Source: Candidatus Poribacteria bacterium
Lineage (GTDB): Bacteria > Poribacteria > WGA-4E > PCPOR2b
Reading direction: 5' to 3'
Assembly (NCBI GenBank): GCA_965204355.1
Contig: OZ241983.1
Location: 5,061,088 to 5,125,087, forward strand
DNA: 64,000 nucleotides
Position 1 is the stretch's first letter. Each line of letters starts with the position of its first letter. The notes beneath the pieces are model-generated. The model was not told the DNA's origin. It saw only the letters and a program-made list of their open reading frames with translations, and did not search any database. Of the stretch, positions 4,653-60,265 are shown piece after piece. Both the position numbers and the translations under genes were made by a program.

Positions 4653-5186
4653 ATGGCAAACGAATCAATTCAACTTTTTAACGGAACGGACCTCACTGGC
4701 TGGCGGATGCGACATACGGACCAAGAACACAAGTGGGTTGTTCACGACGGCATCCTCGACAACACCGATAAAGGTGTAGATATTCTTACACAGCAAGAGT
4801 TCGGTGACTTTGAACTGCATATTGAGTACTCAGTACCAGCAGAGAGTAACAGTGGTATCTATCTCCGGGGTCGATATGAGATTCAGATTTTAGACAGCCT
4901 AGGAAAGACTTATTCGTACCCAGCGGAGAATGGCGCGCTCTATAACCAAAAGCATGTGGATACCGAAGCAAGCAAGCCGGCAGGGGAATGGCAAACGGTG
5001 GATGCAACGCTCAAGGGCATGAGTCTGACAGTATTACTAAACGGGGTCAAGATTCACGACAACGTGACTATCGAGGGACCGACAGGCGGACAACTCGCTG
5101 ATGACAATCCACCCAAGGGGCCCCTGATGTTACAAGGTGATCATGGACCCGTTCAATTCCGTAACATTCGGATTCGGGAACTGTGA
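4653..5186 (+). CDS. DUF1080 (3-keto-disaccharide hydrolase-like) domain protein
   Basis: Contains LFNGTDLTGW ... GIYLRGRYEIQILDS ... PLMLQGDHGPVQFRNIRIREL, which fits DUF1080. An AAGGAGA ribosome-binding site precedes the MANES start. Confidence 0.7.
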   Translation: MANESIQLFNGTDLTGWRMRHTDQEHKWVVHDGILDNTDKGVDILTQQEFGDFELHIEYSVPAESNSGIYLRGRYEIQILDSLGKTYSYPAENGALYNQKHVDTEASKPAGEWQTVDATLKGMSLTVLLNGVKIHDNVTIEGPTGGQLADDNPPKGPLMLQGDHGPVQFRNIRIREL

Positions 5187-5332
5187 GGGTAAAAGGTTCA
5201 TTAGTTCATTGGTTCATTTAGCCTCAGCGAGATCAATTTGTAGGGAACGCAGATCTGCGTTCCGTTTCATCTGACCTTCGCCCTTCGGTTTCGATCCCGA
5301 TTTATCGGGGCGGCGTATGCCTACTACTTTAT

Positions 5333-5487
5333 AAATAGTGAACAATATAAATATGTAGACGTTCACCAATAGTGCCCCTTATCGAAGCCTCATGAAGTCC
5401 CCCTGAGCTTCCCAAGTCCCCCTGACAAGGGGGATTTAGGGGGTTGGTTGTGTGTCGAAAGTGTATAAGTAATTCTAAAGTTCACCA
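5333..5487. repeat. MITE-like element, family A variant with an agtccccctgacaagggggatttagggggtt core
   Basis: Termini are tataaatagtgaaca ... taagtaattctaaagttcacca. The element ends 3 bp before the start codon of the RM gene. Confidence 0.5.
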
Positions 5488-5490
5488 AAA

Positions 5491-8400
5491 ATGCTCAATC
5501 TCAAGCCAACACACAAAATCATCAGAGACTACTACGATGAGTTGGATCGGTTGGATCAGCTCGACACAACGCATGAGGGGGCCGTGCGATCGGCGTTCCA
5601 AGCTTTGCTCCAAGGTTGTGCACGACAGTTTAATTGGACCTTGGTGACTGAACATTCAATGTCCCCTCCCGATAAATCGGGATCCCGATGCCGTTCCGAG
5701 CATTCCGATCTATCGGAACCTGTCGGGACCGTGATAAAGGGGGCTAGGGGGGTTAAGAACAAGCGGATTGTCGTTGATGGCGCGTTGGTAGATAGCTTCC
5801 AACTGCCACACGGCTATTGGGAGGCGAAGGACATCCACGATAATCTACCCACTGAAGTCCAGCGCAAGTTTGAGGTGGGGTATCCCCGTGACAACATCCT
5901 CTTCCAAACCCCACACCGCGCCATCCTTTGGCAGCACAATCGGCAGGCGCTCGATGCCGACCTAACGGATCCGACGCAACTGATAGGGACCCTCGAAACC
6001 TTCTTTTCCCACCGGCCGCAGGAATACGCGGAATGGGAGGAGGCGGTGGCACAGTTCCGGGAACGGGTACCCGCACTTGGGAAGGGCCTGGCGGAACGCA
6101 TCCACGCTGAACGGGAGACAAATCGGGCGTTTATTGCTGCCTTTGCCGACTTCCATGAGAAGTGTTGTCAATCAATCAACCCGAACCTCTCCGAAGCTGC
6201 CGTTGAGGAAATGTTGATCCAGCACCTGTTGACCGAGCGGATCTTCCGAACCGTGTTTAGCAACTCCGATTTCATCCACCGCAATGTCATCGCCCGTGAA
6301 ATCGAAACCGTTATCAACGCGCTAACGTCTCACGCGTTCAGTCGCGAGGATTTTCTGCGTAGCCTTGATCCGTTCTATGTGGCGATCGAGCGTACCGCTG
6401 CCACCATTGATGACTTCTCCCAAAAACAGGGGTTTCTCAACACGGTTTACGAGCAGTTTTTTCAAGGCTTTTCCGTGGAGGTTGCGGACACGCACGGGAT
6501 CGTCTATACGCCGCAGCCGATTGTCGATTTTATGGTGAGAAGTGTTGAGGAGATCCTAAAGACCGAGTTCAGTCGATCGCTCTCCGATTCGGGTGTTCAT
6601 ATCATTGATCCGTTTGTGGGGACCGGCAATTTTATCGTGCGGCTGATGCGAGAAATTCGCAAGACCGCGCTGGGGCAAAAATACACGACCGAACTCCACT
6701 GCAACGAGGTGATGTTGCTGCCGTATTACATCGCGTCGATGAACATCGAACATGAATTTTACGAGGCGACGGGTAGATATCAACCGTTTGAGGGAATCTG
6801 TCTTGTGGATACCTTTGAACTGGCAGAAGACACCCACTACTATGAAGATTCGCTGTTTACAGAGGAGAACACCCGCCGCGTTGAAAAACAGAAGGAAACG
6901 CCGATGTTTGTGGTCATCGGTAATCCACCCTATAACGTCGGTCAGGTCAACGAGAACGACAACAATAAAAATCGGAAATATGAGAAAATGGATGCGCGGG
7001 TTGCGGAAACTTATGCAAAAGACTCCACAGCGACGCTCAAACGTAAACTCTACGACCCATACATAAAGGCGATCCGGTGGGCAGCGGACCGGATAGACGG
7101 GGAAGGGGTTGTTGCATTCATAACGAACAACAGCTTTCTCGCTGATATGACCTTTGACGGAATGCGGAAGCACCTCACAGACGATTTCGACGCGATTTAC
7201 ATTCTGGATCTGGGTGGGAATGCCCGGAAGGAATTGAAGGCCTCGGATGCCAATGTGTTCGGGATTCGGGTTGGTGTGAGCATCAACCTATTTGTAAAAA
7301 CCGGGCGAGCGATGAATCACCCGACTAGCCGTGGGAGGGACATCTCCCGTTCCGCCTGTCCCGATGCTGTCGGGGAGGATCCCGACAAGTCGGGACCTGC
7401 CCTGATGCGTATCTTTTACCATCGCACCGATGACCTGTGGAACAAGAAACAGAAAATCGATTTTCTGAATGAACGCGGACACATCGGCAATGTAGATTGG
7501 CAAACCATTCAACCTGACACACACCACACATGGCTCACCGAAGGACTCCACGCTGAATTTGAAACCTTTATTCCAATGGGAACTAAGGAAGTGAAGGCAG
7601 CAAAAAGTGAAGCGGTGGATGTGATTTTTCAGACTTATAGTCTCGGTATCAGCACCAACCGTGATGCGTGGGCGCGTAATTTCAACCAAAACACGCTGAC
7701 TAAAAAAATGAGTGGAATGATTGAAACTTACAACGCCGAGGTTGATAGGTGGCAACGTCGTGAGAACCGCGATGCGAATGTTGATGATTTTGTGATTTAT
7801 GATGATGAGAAAATCAAGTGGAGTTCGGGTTTAAAGCAGAAGCTAGAAAGCGGAGAAATCGCAGAATTTGCAGAATCAAAAATCCGACAATTCCTCTATC
7901 GTCCGTTTACGAGATCGAACCTCTACTTTGACCGAATGATAAACGATAGGGTGCTCCTGTTCCCATCCATCTTCCCTACACCTGAAACAGAAGCGGAAAA
8001 TCGGGTAATTTGCCTGACTGATAAAGGTTCTGAGAAACCCTTTATGATTCTTATGGGTCATCAATTAACTGATCTTCATGTTGTGGGTCCCGGTTGTGGT
8101 ACTCAATGCTTTCCCTTCTACACCTACGACGAGGCTGGGAGAAACCGCCGAGAAAACATCACCGATTGGGCGTTAGAGCAATTCCGAGCGCATTACGGAG
8201 ACGACACTATTGGCAGGTGGGACATCTTTCATTATGTCTACGGTCTACTCCACCATCCAACTTATCGCGAGCGGTATCAGGCAAACCTCAAACGGGATCT
8301 GCCACGTCTCCCTTATGCACCGGATTTCTGGGCGTTTGCCGAAGCGGGGAAACGGTTAGGGGAAATCCACGTCGGCTACGAGGATGTAGACGAATATCCG

Positions 8401-8739
8401 CTACGTTTCGTCGAGACACCGGATACACCCCTCGATTGGCGGGTGGAGAAGATGAAATTGTCTAAGGACAAGACGGGGATAAAATATAACAATTTCCTAA
8501 CACTCGACGGAATACCCGCGAAGGTGTTTGACTATCGGCTGGGGAATCGGTCTGCGTTGGAATGGGTGATAGATCAGTATCGCGTCAAGACGGACAAACG
8601 GAGCGGCATCGTCAACGACCCGAACCGCGAAGATGATCCGGAGTATATCGTCCGGTTGATTGGAAAGGTGATCGCGGTTAGTTTGGAGACGGTGGAGATT
8701 GTGGAGGGATTGCCCAATTTGGGAGTGCCTTCTCATTAA
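5491..8739 (+). CDS. single-polypeptide restriction-modification enzyme (Type IIG / ISP-like) with a PD-(D/E)xK nuclease, a gamma-class N6-adenine DNA methyltransferase and a C-terminal target-recognition region
   Basis: The N-terminal region carries a PD-(D/E)xK-like pattern (VVDGALVD-x9-EAK). Motif X is GIVYTPQPIVDFM, motif I is IIDPFVGTGNF and motif IV is GNPPYNV. A C-terminal region of about 450 aa follows. The ORF is intact despite two REP-derived in-frame segments. Confidence 0.6.
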   Translation: MLNLKPTHKIIRDYYDELDRLDQLDTTHEGAVRSAFQALLQGCARQFNWTLVTEHSMSPPDKSGSRCRSEHSDLSEPVGTVIKGARGVKNKRIVVDGALVDSFQLPHGYWEAKDIHDNLPTEVQRKFEVGYPRDNILFQTPHRAILWQHNRQALDADLTDPTQLIGTLETFFSHRPQEYAEWEEAVAQFRERVPALGKGLAERIHAERETNRAFIAAFADFHEKCCQSINPNLSEAAVEEMLIQHLLTERIFRTVFSNSDFIHRNVIAREIETVINALTSHAFSREDFLRSLDPFYVAIERTAATIDDFSQKQGFLNTVYEQFFQGFSVEVADTHGIVYTPQPIVDFMVRSVEEILKTEFSRSLSDSGVHIIDPFVGTGNFIVRLMREIRKTALGQKYTTELHCNEVMLLPYYIASMNIEHEFYEATGRYQPFEGICLVDTFELAEDTHYYEDSLFTEENTRRVEKQKETPMFVVIGNPPYNVGQVNENDNNKNRKYEKMDARVAETYAKDSTATLKRKLYDPYIKAIRWAADRIDGEGVVAFITNNSFLADMTFDGMRKHLTDDFDAIYILDLGGNARKELKASDANVFGIRVGVSINLFVKTGRAMNHPTSRGRDISRSACPDAVGEDPDKSGPALMRIFYHRTDDLWNKKQKIDFLNERGHIGNVDWQTIQPDTHHTWLTEGLHAEFETFIPMGTKEVKAAKSEAVDVIFQTYSLGISTNRDAWARNFNQNTLTKKMSGMIETYNAEVDRWQRRENRDANVDDFVIYDDEKIKWSSGLKQKLESGEIAEFAESKIRQFLYRPFTRSNLYFDRMINDRVLLFPSIFPTPETEAENRVICLTDKGSEKPFMILMGHQLTDLHVVGPGCGTQCFPFYTYDEAGRNRRENITDWALEQFRAHYGDDTIGRWDIFHYVYGLLHHPTYRERYQANLKRDLPRLPYAPDFWAFAEAGKRLGEIHVGYEDVDEYPLRFVETPDTPLDWRVEKMKLSKDKTGIKYNNFLTLDGIPAKVFDYRLGNRSALEWVIDQYRVKTDKRSGIVNDPNREDDPEYIVRLIGKVIAVSLETVEIVEGLPNLGVPSH

Positions 8740-8768
8740 ACACAGCGCGTAAAAGAAATGTCTCAAAT

Positions 8769-8940
8769 TATAGTAGATTTTAGAATTACTTGGACACTGC
8801 CAATAGTCGAGGTGAGGAAACCTCGACTACCGGAGATGGAAAAATCTGGGCTATGACCCCGGTAGGTGCGGTTTCTCCCCGCACCGCATCAGCGCAGTTA
8901 CAAACAGCGCCTACCAAACACGGAGAGCGAAGGCACTCAT
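8769..8940. repeat. MITE-like element, family A, degenerate at one end
   Basis: Contains tatagtagattttagaattacttggacact ... ggtaggtgcggtttctccccgcaccgc ... cagcgcctaccaaacacggagagcgaagg. Confidence 0.5.
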
Positions 8941-9195
8941 CAAACCGGTGGGTGACACATCAATTGATTAAATACCTATCTCGACAGTCGTATGTATTCC
9001 GCTCCAGCGGAGCGATATGTCTATAGAATCGTGATAGGTCCAACGGCCGCGCTCCAGCGGAGCGCAATATGTATAGCAAGAGTTTCAGTTCGTAGTAGCG
9101 CATTTCTTAATCCCGATTTATCGGGGATTCATTGCGCGTTCGGACGGCGGATGAAGAAACGGGCGGCTACAATCTGAAGTGTGCAAGCCGCCCTG

Positions 9196-9366
9196 ATGTC
9201 ACAAAATGTCACAAAATGTCACAGATTTTGCATATTTTCGTTAGTCTTGGGGCGGACCGTTGATGAACATTAGCTTTGATTTTGATCAGATGTCACAGAA
9301 TGTCACAGATTCTCACAAATTCTCACATATTTTTTACCTGAGTGTGCGTTTTAGTGCGTTTTAGTG
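9196..9366. repeat. direct-repeat array: TGTCACA(aaa/gat) five times, TCTCACA(aat) twice, GTGCGTTTTAGT twice
   Basis: Three adjacent 10-bp units tgtcacaaaa/tgtcacaaaa/tgtcacagat start at 9197. A second block, atgtcacagaatgtcacagattctcacaaattctcacat, starts at 9289. The gtgcgttttagt unit repeats twice at 9343. Confidence 0.6.
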
Positions 9367-9584
9367 AGGTGGTTTGGACTTCTGAACCCTGATTTATGCC
9401 GTTCCCCCGATAAATCGGGACAAGCAGATTGTACTACTTATCAGGGGGACTTATGAGCCAGCTGCATAAGTCCTGGGATTGTCAGGTTATAGCTGATAGC
9501 TGTTTCTGCCATCCGTAATTATTATTTTAACATATCGGAATAACATATTGCAAAAAATTAATCATTCCGCCGGGGCTTTAGGGC

Positions 9585-9830
9585 TATTCAGTTTTAGGCT
9601 TTTTACGTATTTTGTTTGAAAAGTCGGAGTCGGGCAGTCGCTCTTAGAGCGACGTGTCGGGATTTGGAAATCCCTCCTACAGAAGAACTATGGTGAATTT
9701 TAGAATTACTTGAACGCTCTGTACCGGCGAGGATGGGAAAAGCCGGACTATCACCCCGGTAGGCGCAGTTACAAACAGCACCTACCAAACATGGGGAACG
9801 AAAGTGTCTATCTGTTTTTAGAATCCACTA
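9585..9830. repeat. composite repeat: a family B element followed by a family A MITE
   Basis: The first block is cagttttaggct ... tattttgtttgaaaagtcggagtcgggcagtcgctcttagagcgacgtgtcgggatttggaaatccctcctac. The second block is ctatggtgaattttagaattacttgaacgctctgtaccggcg ... agaatccactaatt. The same B+A pair recurs at 60003-60265. The repeat ends 3 bp before ATG 9834. Confidence 0.55.
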
Positions 9831-9833
9831 ATT

Positions 9834-10862
9834 ATGAGATGTAAAGCACGAACCCCCTTCATTTTTCGATGTCATAGAAGCGCCGTTGAAAACAGCCCCT
9901 ACTGCGCTGAGCATCAGAACTACCCACCGAGCGGTTGGCGGTATGGATTGCTAACGGCTTCAAGGATTGCGACCGGGATTGCTGCGGCTGCGGTTACGGT
10001 TGTCGGTTTCGCCTGCCTAAGAAACTGTCCCAACAAGGATCTGAAGGAGAGCGAAGGGCAGCTGCGTGGGATGGCGCCATTTGAGTACGCTGTGTTGTGT
10101 CTGGCGATTTACGAGGCTAAGACGGAACTGCGCATCTCCACAAAAACGGATGGCGCCCAGATCTTTATGACGCCAGCGGCGAGTAACGATGTCTATTTCT
10201 CCCGAATAACAGAGCCACCGAACTGGACGCAGCTCTCCGCTCCTTCACGTCGGGCCCAACTTCCGGAGGCGCTAAAGGGCGCAACGTTTGAGGACCCTAA
10301 CACAGGTTTCCGTGCGATGTTATACCGATCAAGGGACGAGCAGGAGATTGTCGTTGTTTATCGGGGTGTAAGGAGAACCAATATCCTCCAAGATAGCCAG
10401 ACCTGCCTCTCCCAAGGGTTAGGGTTTGGCGCAGCAATATATCGACAGGCAATCGAACTCGCCCTAGCGGTTGTGGAGGCGTATGGGGACAAGGTGATCT
10501 TCACGGGGCATTCCATGGGCGGCGGTCTGGCAGCCTCAGCGAGCATCGTTGCGAATCGTCCAGCGGTGACTTTCAACAGTGCAGGGGTGCACCCCGCTAC
10601 CCTTGAAGGGTTTGACTTAGTAGATCATGCGACCATTGACGAAAGACTGAAGTCCATTGAGAACTATTATGTGCCGGGCGAATGGCTATCCACTTTACAA
10701 CGTCCCTGCTTTGTCAAGAGCGCCGCTGGGGTACATATTCCACTGCCGGATGTCGGAGGTCGAGTCTCTGTGAAAATGGTGCCCGCCCGGAATAAAGGAC
10801 GTGGCAAACACTCAATCACGTTGATTATTGCGACACTGTACGAACTCGCCGAACCCTCCTAA
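9834..10862 (+). CDS. alpha/beta-hydrolase, lipase class-3-like protein with an N-terminal transmembrane segment
   Basis: Contains a nucleophile elbow GHSMGGGLA, a Cys-rich N-terminus and then a hydrophobic helix. No ribosome-binding site is present, because the MITE abuts the start. Confidence 0.5.
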   Translation: MRCKARTPFIFRCHRSAVENSPYCAEHQNYPPSGWRYGLLTASRIATGIAAAAVTVVGFACLRNCPNKDLKESEGQLRGMAPFEYAVLCLAIYEAKTELRISTKTDGAQIFMTPAASNDVYFSRITEPPNWTQLSAPSRRAQLPEALKGATFEDPNTGFRAMLYRSRDEQEIVVVYRGVRRTNILQDSQTCLSQGLGFGAAIYRQAIELALAVVEAYGDKVIFTGHSMGGGLAASASIVANRPAVTFNSAGVHPATLEGFDLVDHATIDERLKSIENYYVPGEWLSTLQRPCFVKSAAGVHIPLPDVGGRVSVKMVPARNKGRGKHSITLIIATLYELAEPS

Positions 10863-12622: not shown

Positions 12623-12712
12623 TCTGTAGGTCGATTTTCCAAAATCGACGTTTCGGAGTCGAGATATGAATCTCGACCTATGCCGTTCCGAGCCTCCCGA
12701 TGAATCGGGACA
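12623..12712. repeat. REP-like palindrome cluster
   Basis: Contains gtcgattttccaaaatcgac, gtcgagatatgaatctcgac and atgccgttccgagcctcccgatgaatcgggac. The tgccgttccgag ... cccgatNaatcggg module recurs inside the RM gene and near 9400. Confidence 0.5.
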
Positions 12713-13108
12713 ATCCACTCAATCTATACGGTTTGGGGAGGCTAATCTGGATTGGTCAATGGGCGAGGGGACCTCGTCCCTAAGATTATGGACAGTTTTA
12801 CGTAAATGTCAATACGCCCTAGTGTTCTGTCAAATAAATCATGATAAAGCACTCACCGCTCGGCTCCGACTTCGCCGAGAGTCCAAGACTTGGATAGCCA
12901 TAGCCAAGCCGCTGTGCGGGGGAAGTGTCTAAAGGAGGCTTTTGTACCATCCCGATGAAATCGGGATGATCCCTCCACAAACTAACAGTTTGCGCTACAT
13001 GTATCTGACAATGTACTAACGGCAAGAACCGATTACCGTGAATAAACCTATGGGATACGCACATCGTCGCAGAAAAACGACAACTTCACACCAATTTCCA
13101 ATAATATT

Positions 13109-15175
13109 TTGGCAAAGGATCTATCCAACGTGAAAACAAATCAACGAATCAGAAACGTAGCCAATCACGCATCGCGTCCCGATATATCGGGATCCTCGGA
13201 ACGGGATTTCACGCATCACGTCCCGATATATCGGGATCCTCGGAACGGGATTTCACGCATCACGTTTCACGTCATATTTCTCATTCTGATACTTGTCGGC
13301 GGGGGCATTGGATGTTCAACCGACCGATCTCCCAAGTCCGGTCGTTGGGAAATTGTTCGGCGCGCAGATTGGGAAGCGAGATTCTACGATGTATTCTTCA
13401 TTGATGAGCGTACCGGATGGATAGTTGGAAATAACGCGGGAAGCACATTTGCTGAAGAACTTGACAGCGTCATCGCTCACACAACGGATGGCGGCGTGAC
13501 ATGGCAGCCACAACAGAGCGACGTCTACCATCCGTTACGAGCGGTGCGATTTGTGGACAGCCAAACCGGGTGGATCGTTGGCGAAAATGGTGTTATTCTA
13601 CACACAAAAAATGGCGGGGAGAAGTGGGAACGGCAATCAGCGGACACGTATGACAACCTGTTCGATCTTCATTTTGCTTCAGCCCAAGAAGGGTGGATCG
13701 TCGGCGATTTCGGGACGGTGTTACACACAACGGATGGCGGACAGACTTGGGCGAATCGATCGGAAGGAATCGGTGACAATTCACTGCGAGGCGTATTTTT
13801 CCTCAATTCCCGTCAAGGCTGGACGGTTAGCCATCAGGGCAACGCTTTTTATACACGCGATGGCGGAAAGCGTTGGACTTATCAGAAAACAAACGTCCGC
13901 TACGAGTTGTCCGATGTCCATTTTGTCGATGAAAATCGTGGTTGGATCATCGGCGACAAGCGCACGGTGCTTGCCACACAGGATGGCGGCAGGAATTGGG
14001 AGTATCTAACACGAGGCTCCAATAAACGTCACGAAGAGCACTACGGTCAGCAGATAAGAACTGGGGATGAACCACTACACACCTTCCTCCTGTACGCGCT
14101 CCACTTCACCGATACCGAGAATGGCTGGATCGTTGGCGACTTGGGGGCTATCTTGCACACCAACGATGGTGGGCGGACGTGGAAACATCAGCGGGGCGGT
14201 GCAACACAATTGGTCGGAGCGGATGTCGTTCTGCTGGGGGTCCATTTTGTCAATGCCCAGCTCGGTTGGACTGTCGGTGAGTTTGGGACGATCTGGCATA
14301 CTAAAAATGGCGGGCAAACGTGGGAACTTCAATCCGCACCCAGCTACCTGCTCACAGATCTCCACTTTATCAATGACAAGGTTGGATATGCGGTGGGTGA
14401 CCGTGGGGAGGTTCTTCGCACAGACGACGGCGGGTTACACTGGCAATCGCAGGATAGCGGAACGATGGAGTGTTTCGGATCAACCCATTTTATCAACGAC
14501 AAGGTCGGCTGGAGCGTTGCAGAATGGGGAACGATTGTCCACACCATTGACGGCGGCAAAACGTGGTCACAGCAAGAAGCGGATACGGAAAATGACCTCC
14601 TCGGCGTCTCCTTCGTTGACCCACAGCGAGGGTGGGCAATCGGTCACAGCGGGGAGATTTTGCACACCGCGGACGGCGGCAAAACGTGGGAGAAACAACG
14701 CAGCGGTGTCAATCGTCATCTCTTTGGAGTACATTTCATTGACCCTCAAAACGGATGGGTTGTAGGGCAGGGCGGTGTGATTCTTCACACCCGGAACGGC
14801 GGTCAAAAGTGGGATTTGCAAGCCGAACTCGGAGAAATCTGGCTATCAGGGGTCTATTTTACAGACTATCTAAACGGTTGGGTTGTCGGGATTGATGGCT
14901 TGGTGCTCCACACAACCGACGGCGGGCGCACGTGGAAACGTCAAAAAAGCTACGTGGAAAGTTTCCTGAATAGTGTCTTCTTCCTCAATGCAAACCTCGG
15001 TTGGGCGGTCGGCGGCGAAGGCACGGTTATCCGTACCCTCGATGGCGGTGAGAACTGGCGTCCGCAACGGTGCGAAAGCCACTATAACCTGAACTCGATC
15101 TATATGCAGGACGCTGAAACCGGTTGGATCGTCGGCGATCTCGGCGTGATGTTGCGGTATGTCATTGATGATTAG
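13109..15175 (+). CDS. BNR/Asp-box repeat beta-propeller protein (Ycf48-like or exo-alpha-sialidase-like repeats), probably a lipoprotein
   Basis: About 12 repeats of the (T/D)xDGGxTW Asp-box are present. A lipobox-like LILVGGGIGC follows a 50-aa N-terminal region that contains two 44-bp REP repeats, so the true start is uncertain. Confidence 0.6.
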   Translation: MAKDLSNVKTNQRIRNVANHASRPDISGSSERDFTHHVPIYRDPRNGISRITFHVIFLILILVGGGIGCSTDRSPKSGRWEIVRRADWEARFYDVFFIDERTGWIVGNNAGSTFAEELDSVIAHTTDGGVTWQPQQSDVYHPLRAVRFVDSQTGWIVGENGVILHTKNGGEKWERQSADTYDNLFDLHFASAQEGWIVGDFGTVLHTTDGGQTWANRSEGIGDNSLRGVFFLNSRQGWTVSHQGNAFYTRDGGKRWTYQKTNVRYELSDVHFVDENRGWIIGDKRTVLATQDGGRNWEYLTRGSNKRHEEHYGQQIRTGDEPLHTFLLYALHFTDTENGWIVGDLGAILHTNDGGRTWKHQRGGATQLVGADVVLLGVHFVNAQLGWTVGEFGTIWHTKNGGQTWELQSAPSYLLTDLHFINDKVGYAVGDRGEVLRTDDGGLHWQSQDSGTMECFGSTHFINDKVGWSVAEWGTIVHTIDGGKTWSQQEADTENDLLGVSFVDPQRGWAIGHSGEILHTADGGKTWEKQRSGVNRHLFGVHFIDPQNGWVVGQGGVILHTRNGGQKWDLQAELGEIWLSGVYFTDYLNGWVVGIDGLVLHTTDGGRTWKRQKSYVESFLNSVFFLNANLGWAVGGEGTVIRTLDGGENWRPQRCESHYNLNSIYMQDAETGWIVGDLGVMLRYVIDD
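13170..13257. repeat. 44-bp tandem repeat, two copies, inside the 5' coding region of the BNR protein
   Basis: Two adjacent units of catc(g/a)cgtcccgatatatcgggatcctcggaacgggatttcacg. The core palindrome cccgatatatcggg relates to the genome-wide cccgataaatcggg. Confidence 0.65.
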
Positions 15176-15444
15176 CCGACAACAGTAGGCACATCTTAAT
15201 CCAAGTTGCTAATCGTCAAGCCCACTCGGCTTGGATAGACATATCCAAGTCATCTGTGCATGTTTACAGTGGATTTGTCAGTCCACTGCGAACGGTGATT
15301 AAGAGCATTCTCCTGTAGGAGCGATTTCCAAATCGCGACACGTCGGGAATCGGAGTTCCCAGCTACCGGCGCAACATTGTATTCTGTAGAGCGATCCCCG
15401 AATCGCGACTGAATGCTTTGATAGTCGGGAATCGGAGTTCCCTC

Positions 15445-15918
15445 CTACCGCATGTCGAATTTGCATCGCCAATGTGGGTAATCTTCGGGATGTTTGACAA
15501 GCCCTTTTCTGACGGGGTTTTCGTAACAATAACGAATGATTTTGTTCAAGGATTCATCGCGGCGGATCCCGTGGTCATAGTAGTTAGCTTGCCAGATGGG
15601 ACTGTTCCCCAGCAGCCGCGCGTTGATTTGGTTGGCTGTGAACCTCTTGAAAGATTGGACGAGGCTAGATAAAGTTTGTTTGTTTCCGAGTTGGAAGACA
15701 ACGTGAATGTGGTCTGGCATCACCATGATGCACATCCATTTGAGACGTACCTCCTTTTCAAGCCAGTCGAAAGATTCATAAATAATATCTGGAATGCCGG
15801 AGTTCGTTAAGAGGGGTTCCCTGTTGTGGGTAGCGAGTGTGATGGAATAATATGCGCTAGGTATTGATTTTCTACCTTTCCGCAATTGGCGGTGTCCTTT
15901 ATTAGGGGTTCGGTTCAT
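15445..15918 (-). CDS. IS200/IS605-family Y1 transposase of the REP-associated (RAYT, TnpA_REP) type
   Basis: Contains the HUH motif PDHIHVVF and the C-terminal motif RYCYENPVRKGLV (Y ... NPV+xGLV). The protein is about 157 aa and is flanked by REP arrays. Confidence 0.75.
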   Translation of the reverse strand: MNRTPNKGHRQLRKGRKSIPSAYYSITLATHNREPLLTNSGIPDIIYESFDWLEKEVRLKWMCIMVMPDHIHVVFQLGNKQTLSSLVQSFKRFTANQINARLLGNSPIWQANYYDHGIRRDESLNKIIRYCYENPVRKGLVKHPEDYPHWRCKFDMR

Positions 15919-15967
15919 GTTTTGTTCTCTTGGCAAGATATTTTGTAACAGATTACAGCGTGATACT

Positions 15968-16456
15968 TAGTTGTGTATCAAGTCATTTTCACGTAGGAGC
16001 GATCTCCGAATCGCGACCCCTCGGGAATTAGAGTTCCCGGCTACCGGCGCAACATTGTATTCTGTAGAGCGATCCCCGAATCGCGACTGAATGCTTTGAT
16101 AGTCGGGAAGCGGAGTTCCCTCCTACAACATACTTAGTGTATCAAGTCATTTTCACGTAGGAGCGATCTCCGAATCGCGACCCCTCGGGAATCGGAGTTC
16201 CCGGCTACCGGCGCAACATTGTATTCTGTAGAGCGATCCCCGAATCGCGACTGAATGCTTTGATAGTCGGGAAGCGGAGTTCCCTCCTACAACATACTTA
16301 GTGTATCAAGTCATTTTCACGTAGGAGCGATCTCCGAATCGCGACCCCTCGGGAATTAGAGTTCCCGGCTACCGGCGCAACATTGTATTCTGTAGAGCGA
16401 TCCCCGAATCGCGACTGAATGCTTTGATAGTCGGGAAGCGGAGTTCCCTCCTACAA
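15968..16456. repeat. three tandem copies of a 164-bp unit; each unit carries three REP-like palindromes
   Basis: The unit is acttagtgtatcaagtcattttcacgtaggagcgatctccgaatcgcgacccctcgggaatYRgagttcccggctaccggcgcaacattgtattctgtagagcgatccccgaatcgcgactgaatgctttgatagtcgggaagcggagttccctcctacaacat. Unit starts are near 15968, 16132 and 16296. Confidence 0.7.
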
Positions 16457-16596
16457 CTCAAAAATGTCAAGTTAATTGTAAAATCCACCATAGTTCATTG
16501 GTTCACTAGTTCGTTAATGCATTCAATGAACCAATGAACCAATAAACTAGTGAACAATGTAGCAACAACACGTCATCAGCCAATGTCAAAAAGTTG

Positions 16597-44828: not shown

Positions 44829-45120
44829 TATCGAATACCTCGGTTTCGGAAATAGCTCGTGTTCAGATGAGTAAGAGCTCATTTGACACCAACTCAATTT
44901 ATGCTATAATTACACAAGCTGCTAATTATTCGCCCGTCTGATACAATCGATACCTATACCCGTAGGTCGAGCCTCTCCGGTCGCATGGTCTCGACATGGA
45001 CAGATCCTCGTGGACTTGCCCGATGCGTAACCCCAGCGGGGCGGCATGTTTATAGAGCAGCGGCAGTCCAATTCCGCCAAGCCCCAGTGGGGCTTAGGCG
45101 ATGCAGAGAGGGAACCCGGC

Positions 45121-45858
45121 ATGCCATCCGTTGATGAACTTGATTTCAAACTTCGCATCTTCATGAAACTCTATCGCTATCGACGTTACGACACAACGCC
45201 GCATACCCCGCTGCAGCGACCACTAACGGAATGCCGAGTTGCCTTGGTCACCACCGCCGGTTTACATACAGCGTCTCAAGAATCGTTTGATGATCACTTC
45301 ATGAGCTGCGATTACTCCTATCGTGAAATCCCTAACACTGTTGATGTGCAAGCATTGACGACTGCACACAGTAGCACTGTATACGATCAGACCGGCAGCT
45401 TTGCGGATCGGAATCTGGCGTTTCCACTCGATCGCTTTCGTGAGCTAGAGCAGACGGGCAAAATCGGGGAGCTCAACGACCGGCATTTCAGCTTTATGGG
45501 ATCGCAACCCGCTCCGGGACGTTTAATCAAACGCACCGCCCCGGAAGTTGGGGAGCATCTCAAATCGGACAGCGTTGACGTCGCCTTTCTAACCCCCGTC
45601 TGACCGCTATGCAATCAGTCCGTTGGGCTGATCCAACGTGCAATCGAGGAAGCTGGCATCTCAACCGTTTCGATCACTTTGGTTCGAAGCATTACCGAGC
45701 AGGTCAAACCGCCCCGCGCACTCTCCGTGCCATATCGCTTCGGCTATCCACTTGGCGAGCCGAACAACCCTGCCCTGCAACATAAGATTATCTCAGCTGC
45801 GCTCTCGCTCTTACAGGATAGTCAACCGCTCCCGATTCTGGAGACATTTGTCCCTTAG
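45121..45858 (+). CDS. putative selenocysteine-containing protein, glycine/sarcosine/betaine/D-proline reductase B-like family; TGA at 45601-45603 is read as Sec
   Basis: The upstream ORF ends at TGA 45603. The same frame stays open for 84 more protein-like codons (PLCNQSVGLIQRAIEEAGISTV ... GYPLGEPNNPALQHKIISAALSLL) up to TAG 45856-45858. This creates a U-x-x-C motif (TPV-U-PLC). A hairpin lies 10-30 nt downstream of the TGA. Confidence 0.45.
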
Positions 45859-60002: not shown

Positions 60003-60265
60003 AGGGCTATTCAGTTTTAGGCTTATGACCCATTTTGTTTGAAAAGTCAGAGTCGGGCAGTCGCTCTTAGAGCGAAGTGTCGGGATTTGGAAATCCCTCC
60101 CCGATAAATCGGGATGCAAGCACCTACAGAAAAACTATGGTGAACTTTAGAATGACTTGGACACGCTGTACCGGCGCAGTTAGAAATCCTGGTCACGATT
60201 TATCGGACAGCGCCTACCAAATACCGGGAGCGAAAGTGTCTACATATTTTGATAATTCACTATAA
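60003..60265. repeat. composite repeat: a family B element followed by a family A MITE (second copy of the 9585-9830 arrangement)
   Basis: The first block is ctattcagttttaggctt ... cattttgtttgaaaagtcagagtcgggcagtcgctcttagagcgaagtgtcgggatttggaaatccctcc. The second block is tatggtgaactttagaatgacttggacacgctgtaccggcg ... gagcgaaagtgtctacatattttgataattcactata. Confidence 0.55.

What the first reader, a model, noticed from the sequence alone, without database searches (positions are those of the whole stretch)
7331..7398. Second in-frame REP-like insertion in the same RM gene; both inserts encode the pentapeptide PDKSG
The segment gggagggacatctccc ... gtcccgatgctgtcgggga ... atcccgacaagtcgggac is palindrome-rich, unlike the surrounding coding DNA. 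It is translated as RGRDISRSACPDAVGEDPDKSGPALM.

The palindrome cccgaYaaRtcggg is read as P-D-K-S-G in both inserts, so both insertions are in the same relative frame. This suggests selection for a tolerated reading frame, as seen for RPE elements.

Two independent insertions in one defence gene might alter or switch its activity or specificity.
Basis: seen in the sequence. Interest (0 to 1): 0.6.

Follow-up and report, generated by a model that had tools for sequence, protein, structure and literature searches.

The report
Nested REP hairpins inside restriction gene
A 51-base block of this sponge-symbiont genome's own hairpin repeats (REP-type selfish DNA) has recently been copied, in frame, into a surface loop of a restriction-modification enzyme gene; the insertion is real, but it is most likely a tolerated passenger, not a switch of enzyme function.

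Summary
Window 7331-7398 is a palindrome-rich stretch inside an intact 1082-aa DrdV-like Type IIL/IIG restriction-modification gene (5491-8739). Both inserts read CCCGAYAARTCGGG as PDKSG.

The true second insert is 51 nt (7345-7395). It is a 30-nt module (U30) carrying a nested 21-nt module (U21, 7354-7374). It sits in the loop of an older hairpin, which lies beside a decayed GTAG-tagged REP.

Syntenic orthologues give an allelic series: empty site (L081), U30 only (L085), and U30+U21 (window, L086). Every module also occurs between genes. U21 fills the same target, CCGTTCC^GAG, at three unrelated places, each with a matching empty site.

The host is a Candidatus Poribacteria chromosome. A REP-associated tyrosine transposase gene lies 6.7 kb downstream. 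Homologues in other phyla have short loops and no such palindromes.

The gene stays under purifying selection (dN/dS 0.11-0.24). Both inserts replace 3-4-residue loops of solved homologues, far in sequence from the specificity domain.

Selection on reading frame is plausible but unproven, because there are about two independent events (chance about 0.2). A switch of specificity is unsupported.

This is a new variant of REP/RPE-type in-frame insertion, of moderate interest.

The parts
5491..8739 (+). Host gene: intact 1082-aa single-chain Type IIL/IIG restriction-modification enzyme (nuclease, connector, N6A methyltransferase, target-recognition domain), DrdV-like
   Evidence: Pfam Type_ISP_C, ISP_coupler, N6_Mtase. 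PDB 7LO5 DrdV, E = 2.4e-198. PADLOC REase_MTase_IIG. dN/dS 0.11-0.24.
5668..5730 (+). Insert 1 (63 nt, 21 codons, PDKSGSRCRSEHSDLSEPVGT). It is a 33-nt two-hairpin module (5668-5688 plus 5719-5730) split by a nested 30-nt module.
   Evidence: Absent from syntenic orthologues L081 and L082. An intermediate with only the 33-nt module (PDKSGSRPVGT) exists in L001 and several proteins. Coordinates.
5668..5681 (+). First CCCGATAAATCGGG hairpin, read as PDKSG
5689..5718 (+). Nested 30-nt module TGCCGTTCCGAGCATTCCGATCTATCGGAA. It contains an unoccupied CCGTTCC^GAG target, which is filled by U21 in orthologue L083.
5731..5752 (+). 3' part of the older CCCCC-TGATAA-GGGGG(CTAGGGGGG) hairpin (PLIRGARG in relatives), into which insert 1 went
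   Evidence: Empty form CCCCCCTGATAAGGGGGG in L081 and L082. The same hairpin family is dispersed: 6 copies in the window, 36 in the loci.
7303..7328 (-). Oldest layer at site 2: a decayed antisense copy of the GTAG-tagged REP TTTGTAGTAGGGCGATTYATCGCCCGTC (translated GRAMNHPTS)
   Evidence: Intact copies lie at the same place in other Poribacteria RM genes and in intergenic DNA (L083 3457, L059 6841, L002 3705).
7337..7407 (+). Second layer at site 2: hairpin GGGGCA-N4-TGCCCC (here decayed to GGGACATC ... CCTGCCCTGATG), whose loop received insert 2
   Evidence: Empty form ggggcatc^cttgcccc in L081. The whole composite also occurs outside RM genes (L013 3516, L015 15566).
7345..7395 (+). Insert 2 (51 nt, 17 codons). 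It is U30 (TCCCGTTCC | GAGGATCCCGACAAGTCGGGA) interrupted by U21.
   Evidence: Allelic series: L081 empty, L085 U30 only, window and L086 U30+U21. Fold z = -3.5.
7354..7374 (+). U21, a 21-nt hairpin module GCCTGTCCCGATGCTGTCGGG (ACPDAVG), nested at CCGTTCC^GAG
   Evidence: The same module sits at the same target in L083 site 1 and in an intergenic element of L007. Each has a matched empty site.
7381..7394 (+). Second CCCGACAAGTCGGG hairpin, read as PDKSG
12683..12709 (+). Intergenic relative of the modules, with an empty CCGTTCC^GAG target followed by CCCGATGAATCGGG
   Evidence: It aligns with L007 7565-7695, which carries U21 at that point.
13177..13250 (-). Two intergenic copies of U30 (27/30 identical), forming a 44-nt tandem array
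60099..60122 (+). 24-nt module bearing CCCGATAAATCGGG, inserted between the hairpin and the CTAC tag of a GTAG-type REP. The empty counterpart is at 9656-9680.
15445..15936 (-). REP-associated tyrosine transposase (RAYT), flanked by arrays of GTAGGAGCGATYTCCRAATCGCGAC REPs
   Evidence: NCBIfam NF047646, 125.9 bits against a cutoff of 80, and Pfam Y1_Tnp. HUH (HIH) and YYDH motifs. Flanks.

Best explanation
The window comes from a Candidatus Poribacteria (sponge symbiont) chromosome. That genome is full of REP-type hairpin repeats and encodes at least one REP-associated tyrosine transposase.

Short hairpin modules of 21-33 nt share the stem TCCCGA/TCGGGA. They get copied into defined points, in the loops or at the feet of hairpins that are already there, so the repeats build up as nested layers.

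In this DrdV-like restriction-modification gene, early REP-type hairpins landed in two permissive loops. One joins two strands of the nuclease domain. The other is a hairpin late in the methyltransferase domain. These early hairpins then served as landing pads for later modules.

At site 2 the order is: GTAG-REP, then the GGGGCA..TGCCCC hairpin, then U30, then U21. U21 is the most recent, being absent from an allele 95% identical.

Only copies that are a multiple of three long and free of stops can persist in a gene under purifying selection. The frame seen gives a hydrophilic peptide rich in Pro, Asp, Ser and Gly.

The inserts are passengers. They lengthen two loops by about 55 residues in all and are not needed for the enzyme.

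Shown: insertion, nesting, dispersal, target recurrence, host-specificity and purifying selection.
Inferred: loop exposure, neutrality, and the copying mechanism. That mechanism could be an HUH/RAYT-type reaction on single-stranded hairpins, or template switching between hairpins with the same stem.
For: - Allelic series in syntenic orthologues, with exact 30-nt and 21-nt steps.
- Stepwise length classes at both sites across 124 homologues.
- Every module has intergenic copies.
- Three filled/empty pairs for U21 at CCGTTCC^GAG, and one for a 24-nt module.
- 89 of 121 CCCGA....TCGGG hairpins lie in the 16% of DNA not covered by ORF calls (P = 1e-45).
- RAYT and GTAG-tagged REPs are in the window.
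- Inserts and palindromes occur only in Poribacteria copies: 107 per 1.18 Mb, against 0 per 0.65 Mb in the other two phyla.
- dN/dS is 0.11-0.24, including between insert-bearing alleles.
- Solved homologues have 3-4 residues at both positions, and HMMER and PADLOC alignments break exactly at residue 605.
- The same alleles occur in three independent assemblies.
Against: - The modules in the finding (U30, U21, the PDKSG hairpin) carry no GTAG/CGTC tag. The RAYT in the window is flanked by a different REP family, so no enzyme can be assigned.
- No target-site duplication or other footprint tells transposition apart from gene conversion.
- REP-type hairpins are about 20 times denser in these RM genes than in other coding DNA (16 per 154 kb against 3 per 585 kb; P = 6e-9). 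Pure neutrality explains this only with the landing-pad argument and shared ancestry of paralogues.
- Loop exposure rests on sequence alignment to solved structures, because the AlphaFold model was unusable (pLDDT 43.5).
Confidence: 0.75

Rival explanations
1. The inserts spread by recombination or gene conversion, not by new insertion. The composite GGGGCATC-U30-CCTGCCCC, or whole loop cassettes, would be exchanged between RM paralogues, strains or dispersed composite copies. The 'independent' insertions would then be one or a few old events copied around.
For: - The whole site-2 composite exists outside RM genes (L013 3516, L015 15566).
- Relatives only 75-80% identical carry near-identical insert DNA (L084, L001).
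- The flanks of site 2 are mosaic among homologues.
- U21 is shared by the window and L086 but absent from L085, although the three are about equally distant (dS 0.10-0.13).
Against: - U21 fills the same 10-nt target in three unrelated contexts (RM site 1, RM site 2, and an intergenic element of another genome). The flanks share only 7-12 nt.
- Homology that short fits targeted insertion or template switching better than RecA-type conversion.
- This rival is not exclusive of the main explanation.
Confidence: 0.3
2. The inserts are adaptive. They would diversify exposed loops of the enzyme, for example to escape phage anti-restriction proteins. Alternatively, through the nuclease-domain loop next to the endonuclease dimer interface, they would tune the oligomerisation that licenses cleavage.
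For: - REP-type hairpins are about 20-fold enriched in RM genes over other coding DNA.
- The family has at least four recurrent insertion hot spots.
- Site 1 starts 8-10 residues after the positions aligned to DrdV E41 and R46, which form the endonuclease-endonuclease interface.
- Insert-bearing alleles remain under purifying selection.
Against: - Paralogues in the same genome and orthologues in sister strains work without the inserts.
- The flanking arms of the older hairpin are decaying by non-synonymous changes (G to D, P to L).
- The enrichment can come from landing pads plus paralogue ancestry.
- There is no functional data.
Confidence: 0.1
3. The hairpins act at the nucleic-acid level inside the gene. 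They could be an internal terminator or attenuator, an RNase or RAYT cleavage site, or a recombination hot spot giving on/off variation of the RM system.
For: Strong predicted hairpins. REPs are known from the literature to affect mRNA stability and termination (abstract of PMC3733652, listed).
Against: - No T-run follows the hairpins, and terminator-like sites in 5100-9900 are at the chance level (7 against 5.0 +/- 2.5).
- No Rfam family matches.
- The ORF is intact in all alleles.
Confidence: 0.05
4. The segment is a native hypervariable loop of the enzyme family, or an assembly artefact, and not mobile DNA.
For: The position is length-variable in all relatives.
Against: - Identical modules occur in intergenic DNA.
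- Indel boundaries are exact.
- The modules are absent from homologues in other phyla.
- The same allele is present in three independent assemblies.
Confidence: 0.02

Closest known systems
REP / BIME / REPIN elements with RAYT transposases (Enterobacteria, Pseudomonas; PMC3116915, PMC3733652)
   Same: Short imperfect palindromes in many dispersed, mainly intergenic copies. They cluster and form mosaics. GTAG-tagged members and a RAYT gene flanked by REP arrays are present in this window. Insertion leaves no target duplication.
   Different: The modules in the finding have no GTAG/CGTC tag and no identified RAYT. They are nested inside one another, not arrayed side by side. They sit in frame inside a protein-coding gene, which is contrary to 'extragenic'.
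Rickettsia palindromic elements (RPE) (reviewed in PMC10969869)
   Same: Palindromic repeats inserted in frame into ORFs, adding a peptide to a protein that stays functional. The inserts are thought to lie where the fold tolerates them.
   Different: RPEs are about 100-150 bp single units found in many unrelated genes of an intracellular alphaproteobacterium. Here the modules are 21-33 nt, stacked in layers, and in the DNA sampled are confined to one RM gene family of Poribacteria.
Small dispersed repeats (SDR) of Nostoc and other cyanobacteria (Elhai et al. 2008, Genome Res 18:1484; from my own knowledge, as the paper was not readable here)
   Same: Mobile units of about 20-30 nt that insert into one another at fixed positions, giving filled and empty sites between related genomes.
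   Different: Different sequences and host phylum. As far as I recall, SDRs were not described as in-frame parts of an enzyme. No mechanism is known for either.
DrdV and MmeI Type IIL restriction-modification enzymes (PDB 7LO5; bioRxiv 10.1101/2021.01.06.425610)
   Same: The host protein has the same single-chain architecture and aligns over residues 87-1075 (E = 2.4e-198). The nuclease D...ExK, the methyltransferase motif I and NPPY are present.
   Different: DrdV has 3 residues at site 1 and about 13 at site 2, where the window protein has 31 and 34. The recognition sequence of the window enzyme is unknown.

Membership tests
REP / REPIN-RAYT system | Short (about 20-40 nt) imperfect palindromes in many dispersed copies | tested here: met
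   20 copies of the 14-mer against 0.15 expected in 64 kb. 107 hairpins per 1.18 Mb of Poribacteria DNA. The modules U21, U30 and U33 each have intergenic copies.
REP / REPIN-RAYT system | Predominantly extragenic location | tested here: met
   89 of 121 lie in the 16% of DNA not covered by ORF calls. Dispersed stems are nearly absent from non-RM coding DNA.
REP / REPIN-RAYT system | Conserved GTAG or CGTC tetranucleotide at one end of the palindrome (abstract of PMC3733652, listed) | tested here: inconclusive
   Present in the oldest layer under insert 2 and in its intergenic copies (TTTGTAGTAGGGCGAT..). Also present in the sister subfamily GCCCGATGAATCGGGCAACTAC. Absent from U30, U21 and the PDKSG hairpin themselves.
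REP / REPIN-RAYT system | A RAYT gene flanked by the same REPs | tested here: inconclusive
   A RAYT is present (NF047646, 125.9 bits), but it is flanked by GTAGGAGCGAT..ATCGCGAC REPs, a different family. The rest of the genome could not be searched.
Rickettsia palindromic elements (RPE) | In-frame insertion into an ORF that stays open | tested here: met
   51 nt and 63 nt, no stops, intact 1082-aa ORF, dN/dS 0.11-0.24.
Rickettsia palindromic elements (RPE) | Element of about 100-150 bp encoding one conserved peptide, found in many unrelated genes | tested here: not met
   The modules are 21-33 nt and layered. There are 0-3 doubtful hits in 585 kb of other coding DNA. No other protein cluster representative carries the peptide.
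MITE | Terminal inverted repeats of a parent IS element, plus target-site duplication | tested here: not met
   The junctions of four filled/empty pairs show at most 1-2 nt of ambiguity and no duplication.
Cyanobacterial SDR | Units of about 20-30 nt nested in one another at fixed positions | tested here: met
   U21 lies at CCGTTCC^GAG in three contexts. U30 lies in the loop of GGGGCA..TGCCCC. This is a resemblance only.
Cyanobacterial SDR | Sequence families and cyanobacterial host as defined by Elhai et al. 2008 | not testable with these tools
   The paper is not held. The host here is Poribacteria, and HIP1 occurs once in 64 kb.
Type IIL / IIG restriction-modification enzyme (host gene) | Single chain with N-terminal PD-(D/E)xK nuclease, connector, gamma-class N6A methyltransferase (motif I, NPPY) and C-terminal target-recognition domain | tested here: met
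   The motifs VVDG...YWEAKD, DPFVGTGNF and GNPPYN are visible.
Type IIL / IIG restriction-modification enzyme (host gene) | Demonstrated site-specific methylation and cleavage | not testable with these tools
   Requires expression and methylome or cleavage assays.

The most novel reading that the evidence does not exclude
Tiny (21-33 nt) untagged hairpin modules would be an autonomous layer of mobile DNA that transposes specifically into existing REP hairpins. Their repeated stacking inside DrdV-like RM genes would be selected, not accidental. It would create hypervariable surface loops. One of these lies next to the endonuclease dimer interface. These loops would tune cleavage licensing or evade phage anti-restriction proteins. 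In that case selfish repeats would serve as a loop-diversifying mechanism for a defence enzyme in sponge symbionts.
Probability: 0.08. Interest if true: 0.75.

Novelty: new variant of a known kind. Interest (0 to 1): 0.45.

Why it matters
- It gives a clean natural series (empty, one layer, two layers) showing that REP-type DNA as short as 21 nt is still being copied to a defined target in Poribacteria. I found no description of such repeats in that phylum in the papers searched.
- It shows that 'extragenic' palindromes can become about 5% of a working enzyme.
- The two sites mark loops of Type IIL enzymes that tolerate 20-35 extra residues, which is useful for engineering.
- The host-specific inserts show that the RM gene picks up the repeats of the genome it lives in. 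They could therefore date and orient the transfers of these genes between sponge-symbiont phyla.
- The roughly 20-fold excess of such hairpins in RM genes over other genes is unexplained and can be tested.

Tried and rejected
- AlphaFold2 on the 26-sequence alignment gave mean pLDDT 43.5. The model was not used for mapping, and no fold search was run.
- The exact-protein contig look-up for the window protein found nothing. Orthologues were reached through cluster members instead.
- A metagenome scan with a 23-nt U30 pattern found 0 hits.
- A second scan with the 16-nt hairpin returned 120 mostly single, scattered hits that looked like chance matches and were not analysed further.
- A search of 1.84 billion cluster representatives with the 31-aa insert peptide found nothing. 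This test is weak, because the query is short and the representatives may lack the insert.
- Rfam showed only a tRNA. The promoter and terminator scan was at the chance level.
- An initial guess of a cyanobacterial origin was dropped: HIP1 occurs once and the relatives are Poribacteria.
- PIYR, PTSR and RLVG matches in homologues turned out to be native motifs, not other frames of the palindrome.
- The Elhai 2008 paper could not be read.
- The compensatory-looking T>C and A>G pair in the second PDKSG hairpin was not taken as evidence of selection on the stem, because C-G variants exist in other family members.
Full report
**1. What is at the coordinates**

Window 7331-7398 lies inside one long ORF, 5491-8739 (+), of 1082 aa.

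As single-stranded DNA it folds to -19.5 kcal/mol, against -12.1 +/- 2.2 for shuffles (z = -3.4; 0 of 200 as good). Two coding stretches of equal length nearby give z = +0.76 and -1.09. GC peaks at 0.66.

The palindrome CCCGAYAARTCGGG (up to 1 mismatch) occurs 20 times in 64 kb, against 0.15 expected. The copies at 5668 and 7381 are both in frame 0 of the ORF and both encode PDKSG.

**2. The host gene**

- Pfam finds Type_ISP_C, ISP_coupler and N6_Mtase/Eco57I.
- The best solved relative is DrdV (7LO5/7LVV), a 1029-aa Type IIL enzyme, at E = 2.4e-198 over residues 87-1075. LlaGI and LlaBIII match the methyltransferase and recognition parts.
- PADLOC calls it a Type IIG enzyme-methyltransferase.
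- The nuclease motif VVDG...YWEAKD, motif I DPFVGTGNF and motif IV NPPY are present.
- No partner gene is nearby. The neighbours are metabolic or unknown.

**3. The organism**

The gene has thousands of relatives. The 80 best genomic loci are all metagenome-assembled genomes labelled Candidatus Poribacteria, Caldilineaceae or Latescibacterota. I take these to be sponge symbionts. This rests on my knowledge of Poribacteria, not on sample data. The Poribacteria copies are the closest, at 80%. There are several paralogues per genome. HIP1 occurs once, so the window is not cyanobacterial.

**4. It is an insertion, and a layered one**

Four loci have the same upstream genes as the window and are orthologues: L081, L082, L083 and L085. 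L086 carries the same allele, but its contig starts just upstream of the gene.

DNA alignment gives, at site 2:

| Locus | State at site 2 |
|---|---|
| L081 | ggggcatc^cttgcccc (empty) |
| L085 (95% identical to the window) | same site plus 30 nt, TCCCGTTCCGAGGATCCCGACAAGTCGGGA (U30) |
| Window and L086 | U30 interrupted after TCCCGTTCC by 21 nt, GCCTGTCCCGATGCTGTCGGG (U21) |

The true insert is therefore 7345-7395 (51 nt), with U21 at 7354-7374. The empty site is itself a hairpin, GGGGCA-N4-TGCCCC, and U30 went into its loop.

Just upstream, 7303-7328 is a decayed antisense copy of a GTAG-tagged REP, TTTGTAGTAGGGCGATTYATCGCCCGTC. Intact copies lie at this spot in other Poribacteria RM genes and also in intergenic DNA.

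At site 1, L081 and L082 have CCCCCCTGATAAGGGGGG. The window, L085 and L086 have 63 extra nt (5668-5730). These are a 33-nt two-hairpin module split by a 30-nt module. L083 has the same plus U21, again at CCGTTCC^GAG.

Across 124 homologous proteins both sites show the corresponding length classes:

- Site 1: 5, 12, 23, 33 and 40 residues.
- Site 2: 10, 19-20, 30-31 and 37 residues.

**5. The modules are dispersed repeats**

- U30 occurs twice at 13177-13250 (27/30 identical) and in L021.
- U33 occurs in intergenic DNA of L083, L015 and L061.
- U21 occurs in L007, L015 and L022.
- In L007, U21 sits at CCGTTCC^GAG of an element whose empty counterpart is window 12640-12745.
- Inside the window, 60055-60185 equals 9615-9725 plus a 24-nt module carrying the PDKSG hairpin. 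That module is inserted between a REP hairpin and its CTAC tag.
- The whole site-2 composite also exists outside RM genes (L013 3516, L015 15566).
- None of the junctions shows a target duplication.
- In 1.9 Mb, 89 of 121 CCCGA....TCGGG hairpins lie in the 16% of DNA not covered by ORF calls (P = 1e-45).

**6. REP machinery**

Window 15445-15936 (-) encodes a 163-aa protein that passes the NCBIfam equivalog for REP-associated tyrosine transposase (125.9 bits, cutoff 80). It also matches Pfam Y1_Tnp and has HIH and YYDH motifs.

Arrays of GTAGGAGCGATYTCCRAATCGCGAC REPs flank it on both sides. An orthologue with the same flanks is in L015.

These REPs are not the family in the finding, so the enzyme that moves U21 and U30, if any, is unidentified. 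A subfamily of the PDKSG hairpin, GCCCGATGAATCGGGCAACTAC, does carry the tag.

**7. Host-specificity**

Only Poribacteria copies of the RM gene carry these inserts. Caldilineaceae and Latescibacterota homologues have 8-12 residues at site 2 (one has 18). The few that could be read at site 1 (four Latescibacterota loci) have 5 residues. Their 0.65 Mb of DNA contains no CCCGA....TCGGG at all, against 107 in 1.18 Mb of Poribacteria DNA.

**8. Where the inserts lie in the protein**

By alignment, window residues 56-86 correspond to DrdV 52-54. Residues 606-639 correspond to LlaGI 987-990 and to about 13 residues of DrdV.

In DrdV, F562 and K567 touch the flipped adenine, and the methyltransferase domain ends at residue 635. 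Their equivalents here are F590 and R593. I infer that insert 2 lies at the far end of the strand pair that follows them.

Site 1 follows the strand LVTEH, 8-10 residues after the positions aligned to DrdV E41 and R46. Those residues form the endonuclease-endonuclease interface. Neither insert is in the recognition domain. The AlphaFold model was too poor to use.

**9. Selection**

dN/dS between orthologues is 0.11-0.24, including between insert-bearing alleles. Paralogues in the same genome (P0018, P0062) lack the PDKSG-bearing modules, and P0018 has both loops empty. The arms of the older hairpin around insert 2 carry two non-synonymous changes in the window.

**10. The frame question**

PDKSG is found in 15 of 124 homologues. 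No other frame of the palindrome occurs as an insert. However:

- Only one of the six frames has a stop.
- The events reduce to about two independent ones, so P is about 0.2.
- At each site the frame follows from insertion at a fixed point of a hairpin already in frame.
- Another module, CCCCC..GGGGG, is read in two frames at site 1.

Frame selection is plausible, since the peptide is hydrophilic and turn-forming, but it is not demonstrated.

**11. An unexplained excess**

Hairpins with stems that are dispersed in intergenic DNA occur 16 times in about 154 kb of RM coding DNA. They occur 3 times, all doubtful, in 585 kb of other coding DNA (ratio about 20; P = 6e-9). Landing pads and shared ancestry of paralogues can account for much of this. 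An adaptive reading is not excluded.

**12. Verdict**

This is a real, recent, layered, in-frame insertion of REP-type hairpin modules into two permissive loops of a DrdV-like RM enzyme of a Poribacteria symbiont. It works like REP/BIME mosaics and like Rickettsia RPEs, but it meets the full definition of neither. I found no description of such repeats in Poribacteria in the papers searched. I rate it a new variant of a known kind, of moderate interest.

Noticed in passing
window 15270-16460: A REP-associated tyrosine transposase gene (15445-15936, minus strand) sits between arrays of GTAG-tagged REPs. These include a 164-nt unit repeated three times at 15973-16457. The same gene with the same flanks is in L015 19546-20016.
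   Followed up: partly
loci L001-L080: DrdV-like RM genes are 65-80% identical in protein across three phyla labelled Poribacteria, Caldilineaceae and Latescibacterota. There are up to seven paralogues per genome. This suggests frequent transfer of the gene between phyla.
   Followed up: partly
window 5469-5485 (-) and 8773-8789 (+), plus ten other sites: A dispersed motif, GTGAAYTTTAGAATTAC, occurs 12 times against 0.3 expected, and all copies lie outside the ORF calls. An inverted pair brackets the RM gene. It contains a -10-like TAGAAT. Its role (promoter, or the end of a mobile unit) is unknown.
   Followed up: partly
window about 5335-5490: About 150 nt between 'ctactactttata' and the RM start codon are present in the window and L082 but absent in L085 and L086. 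In those two loci the REP region abuts the ATG.
   Followed up: no
downstream of the RM gene: window 9834-10862; L081, L083, L086: The next gene differs between syntenic loci. It is phospholipase-like in the window, L082 and L085; a 1518-aa SMEK_N/NACHT protein in L081 and L083; and pP_pnuc_1 plus DUF2806 in L086. This is a variable region resembling a defence island.
   Followed up: no
RM family alignment, after residues about 360 and about 982 of the window protein: Two further recurrent in-frame insertion hot spots carry low-complexity peptides (for example GNGGRAATRAAP and SPRLRGRGL) in some relatives. The window allele is empty at both.
   Followed up: partly
window 13165-13265 and 9196-9223: There is a 44-nt tandem array (2.3 copies) built from U30 upstream of a BNR/Ycf48-like gene, and a 10-nt ATGTCACAAA array in the spacer after the RM gene.
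   Followed up: no
window 9656-9680, 60077-60125, and the modules in the RM gene: The untagged end of the GTAGGAG...CCCGAC REPs (ATCCCGAC / GTCGGGAT) has the same sequence as the stem of the PDKSG, U21 and U33 hairpins (TCCCGAC / GTCGGGA). The small modules might derive from REP ends joined head to head. All module lengths seen (21, 24, 30, 30, 33, 33 nt) are multiples of three, including two intergenic insertions.
   Followed up: no
window 45046-45603: A 185-aa ORF matches only the C-terminal 140 positions of glycine/sarcosine/betaine reductase selenoprotein B (GRDB). Whether an upstream part is separated by a UGA codon was not checked.
   Followed up: no
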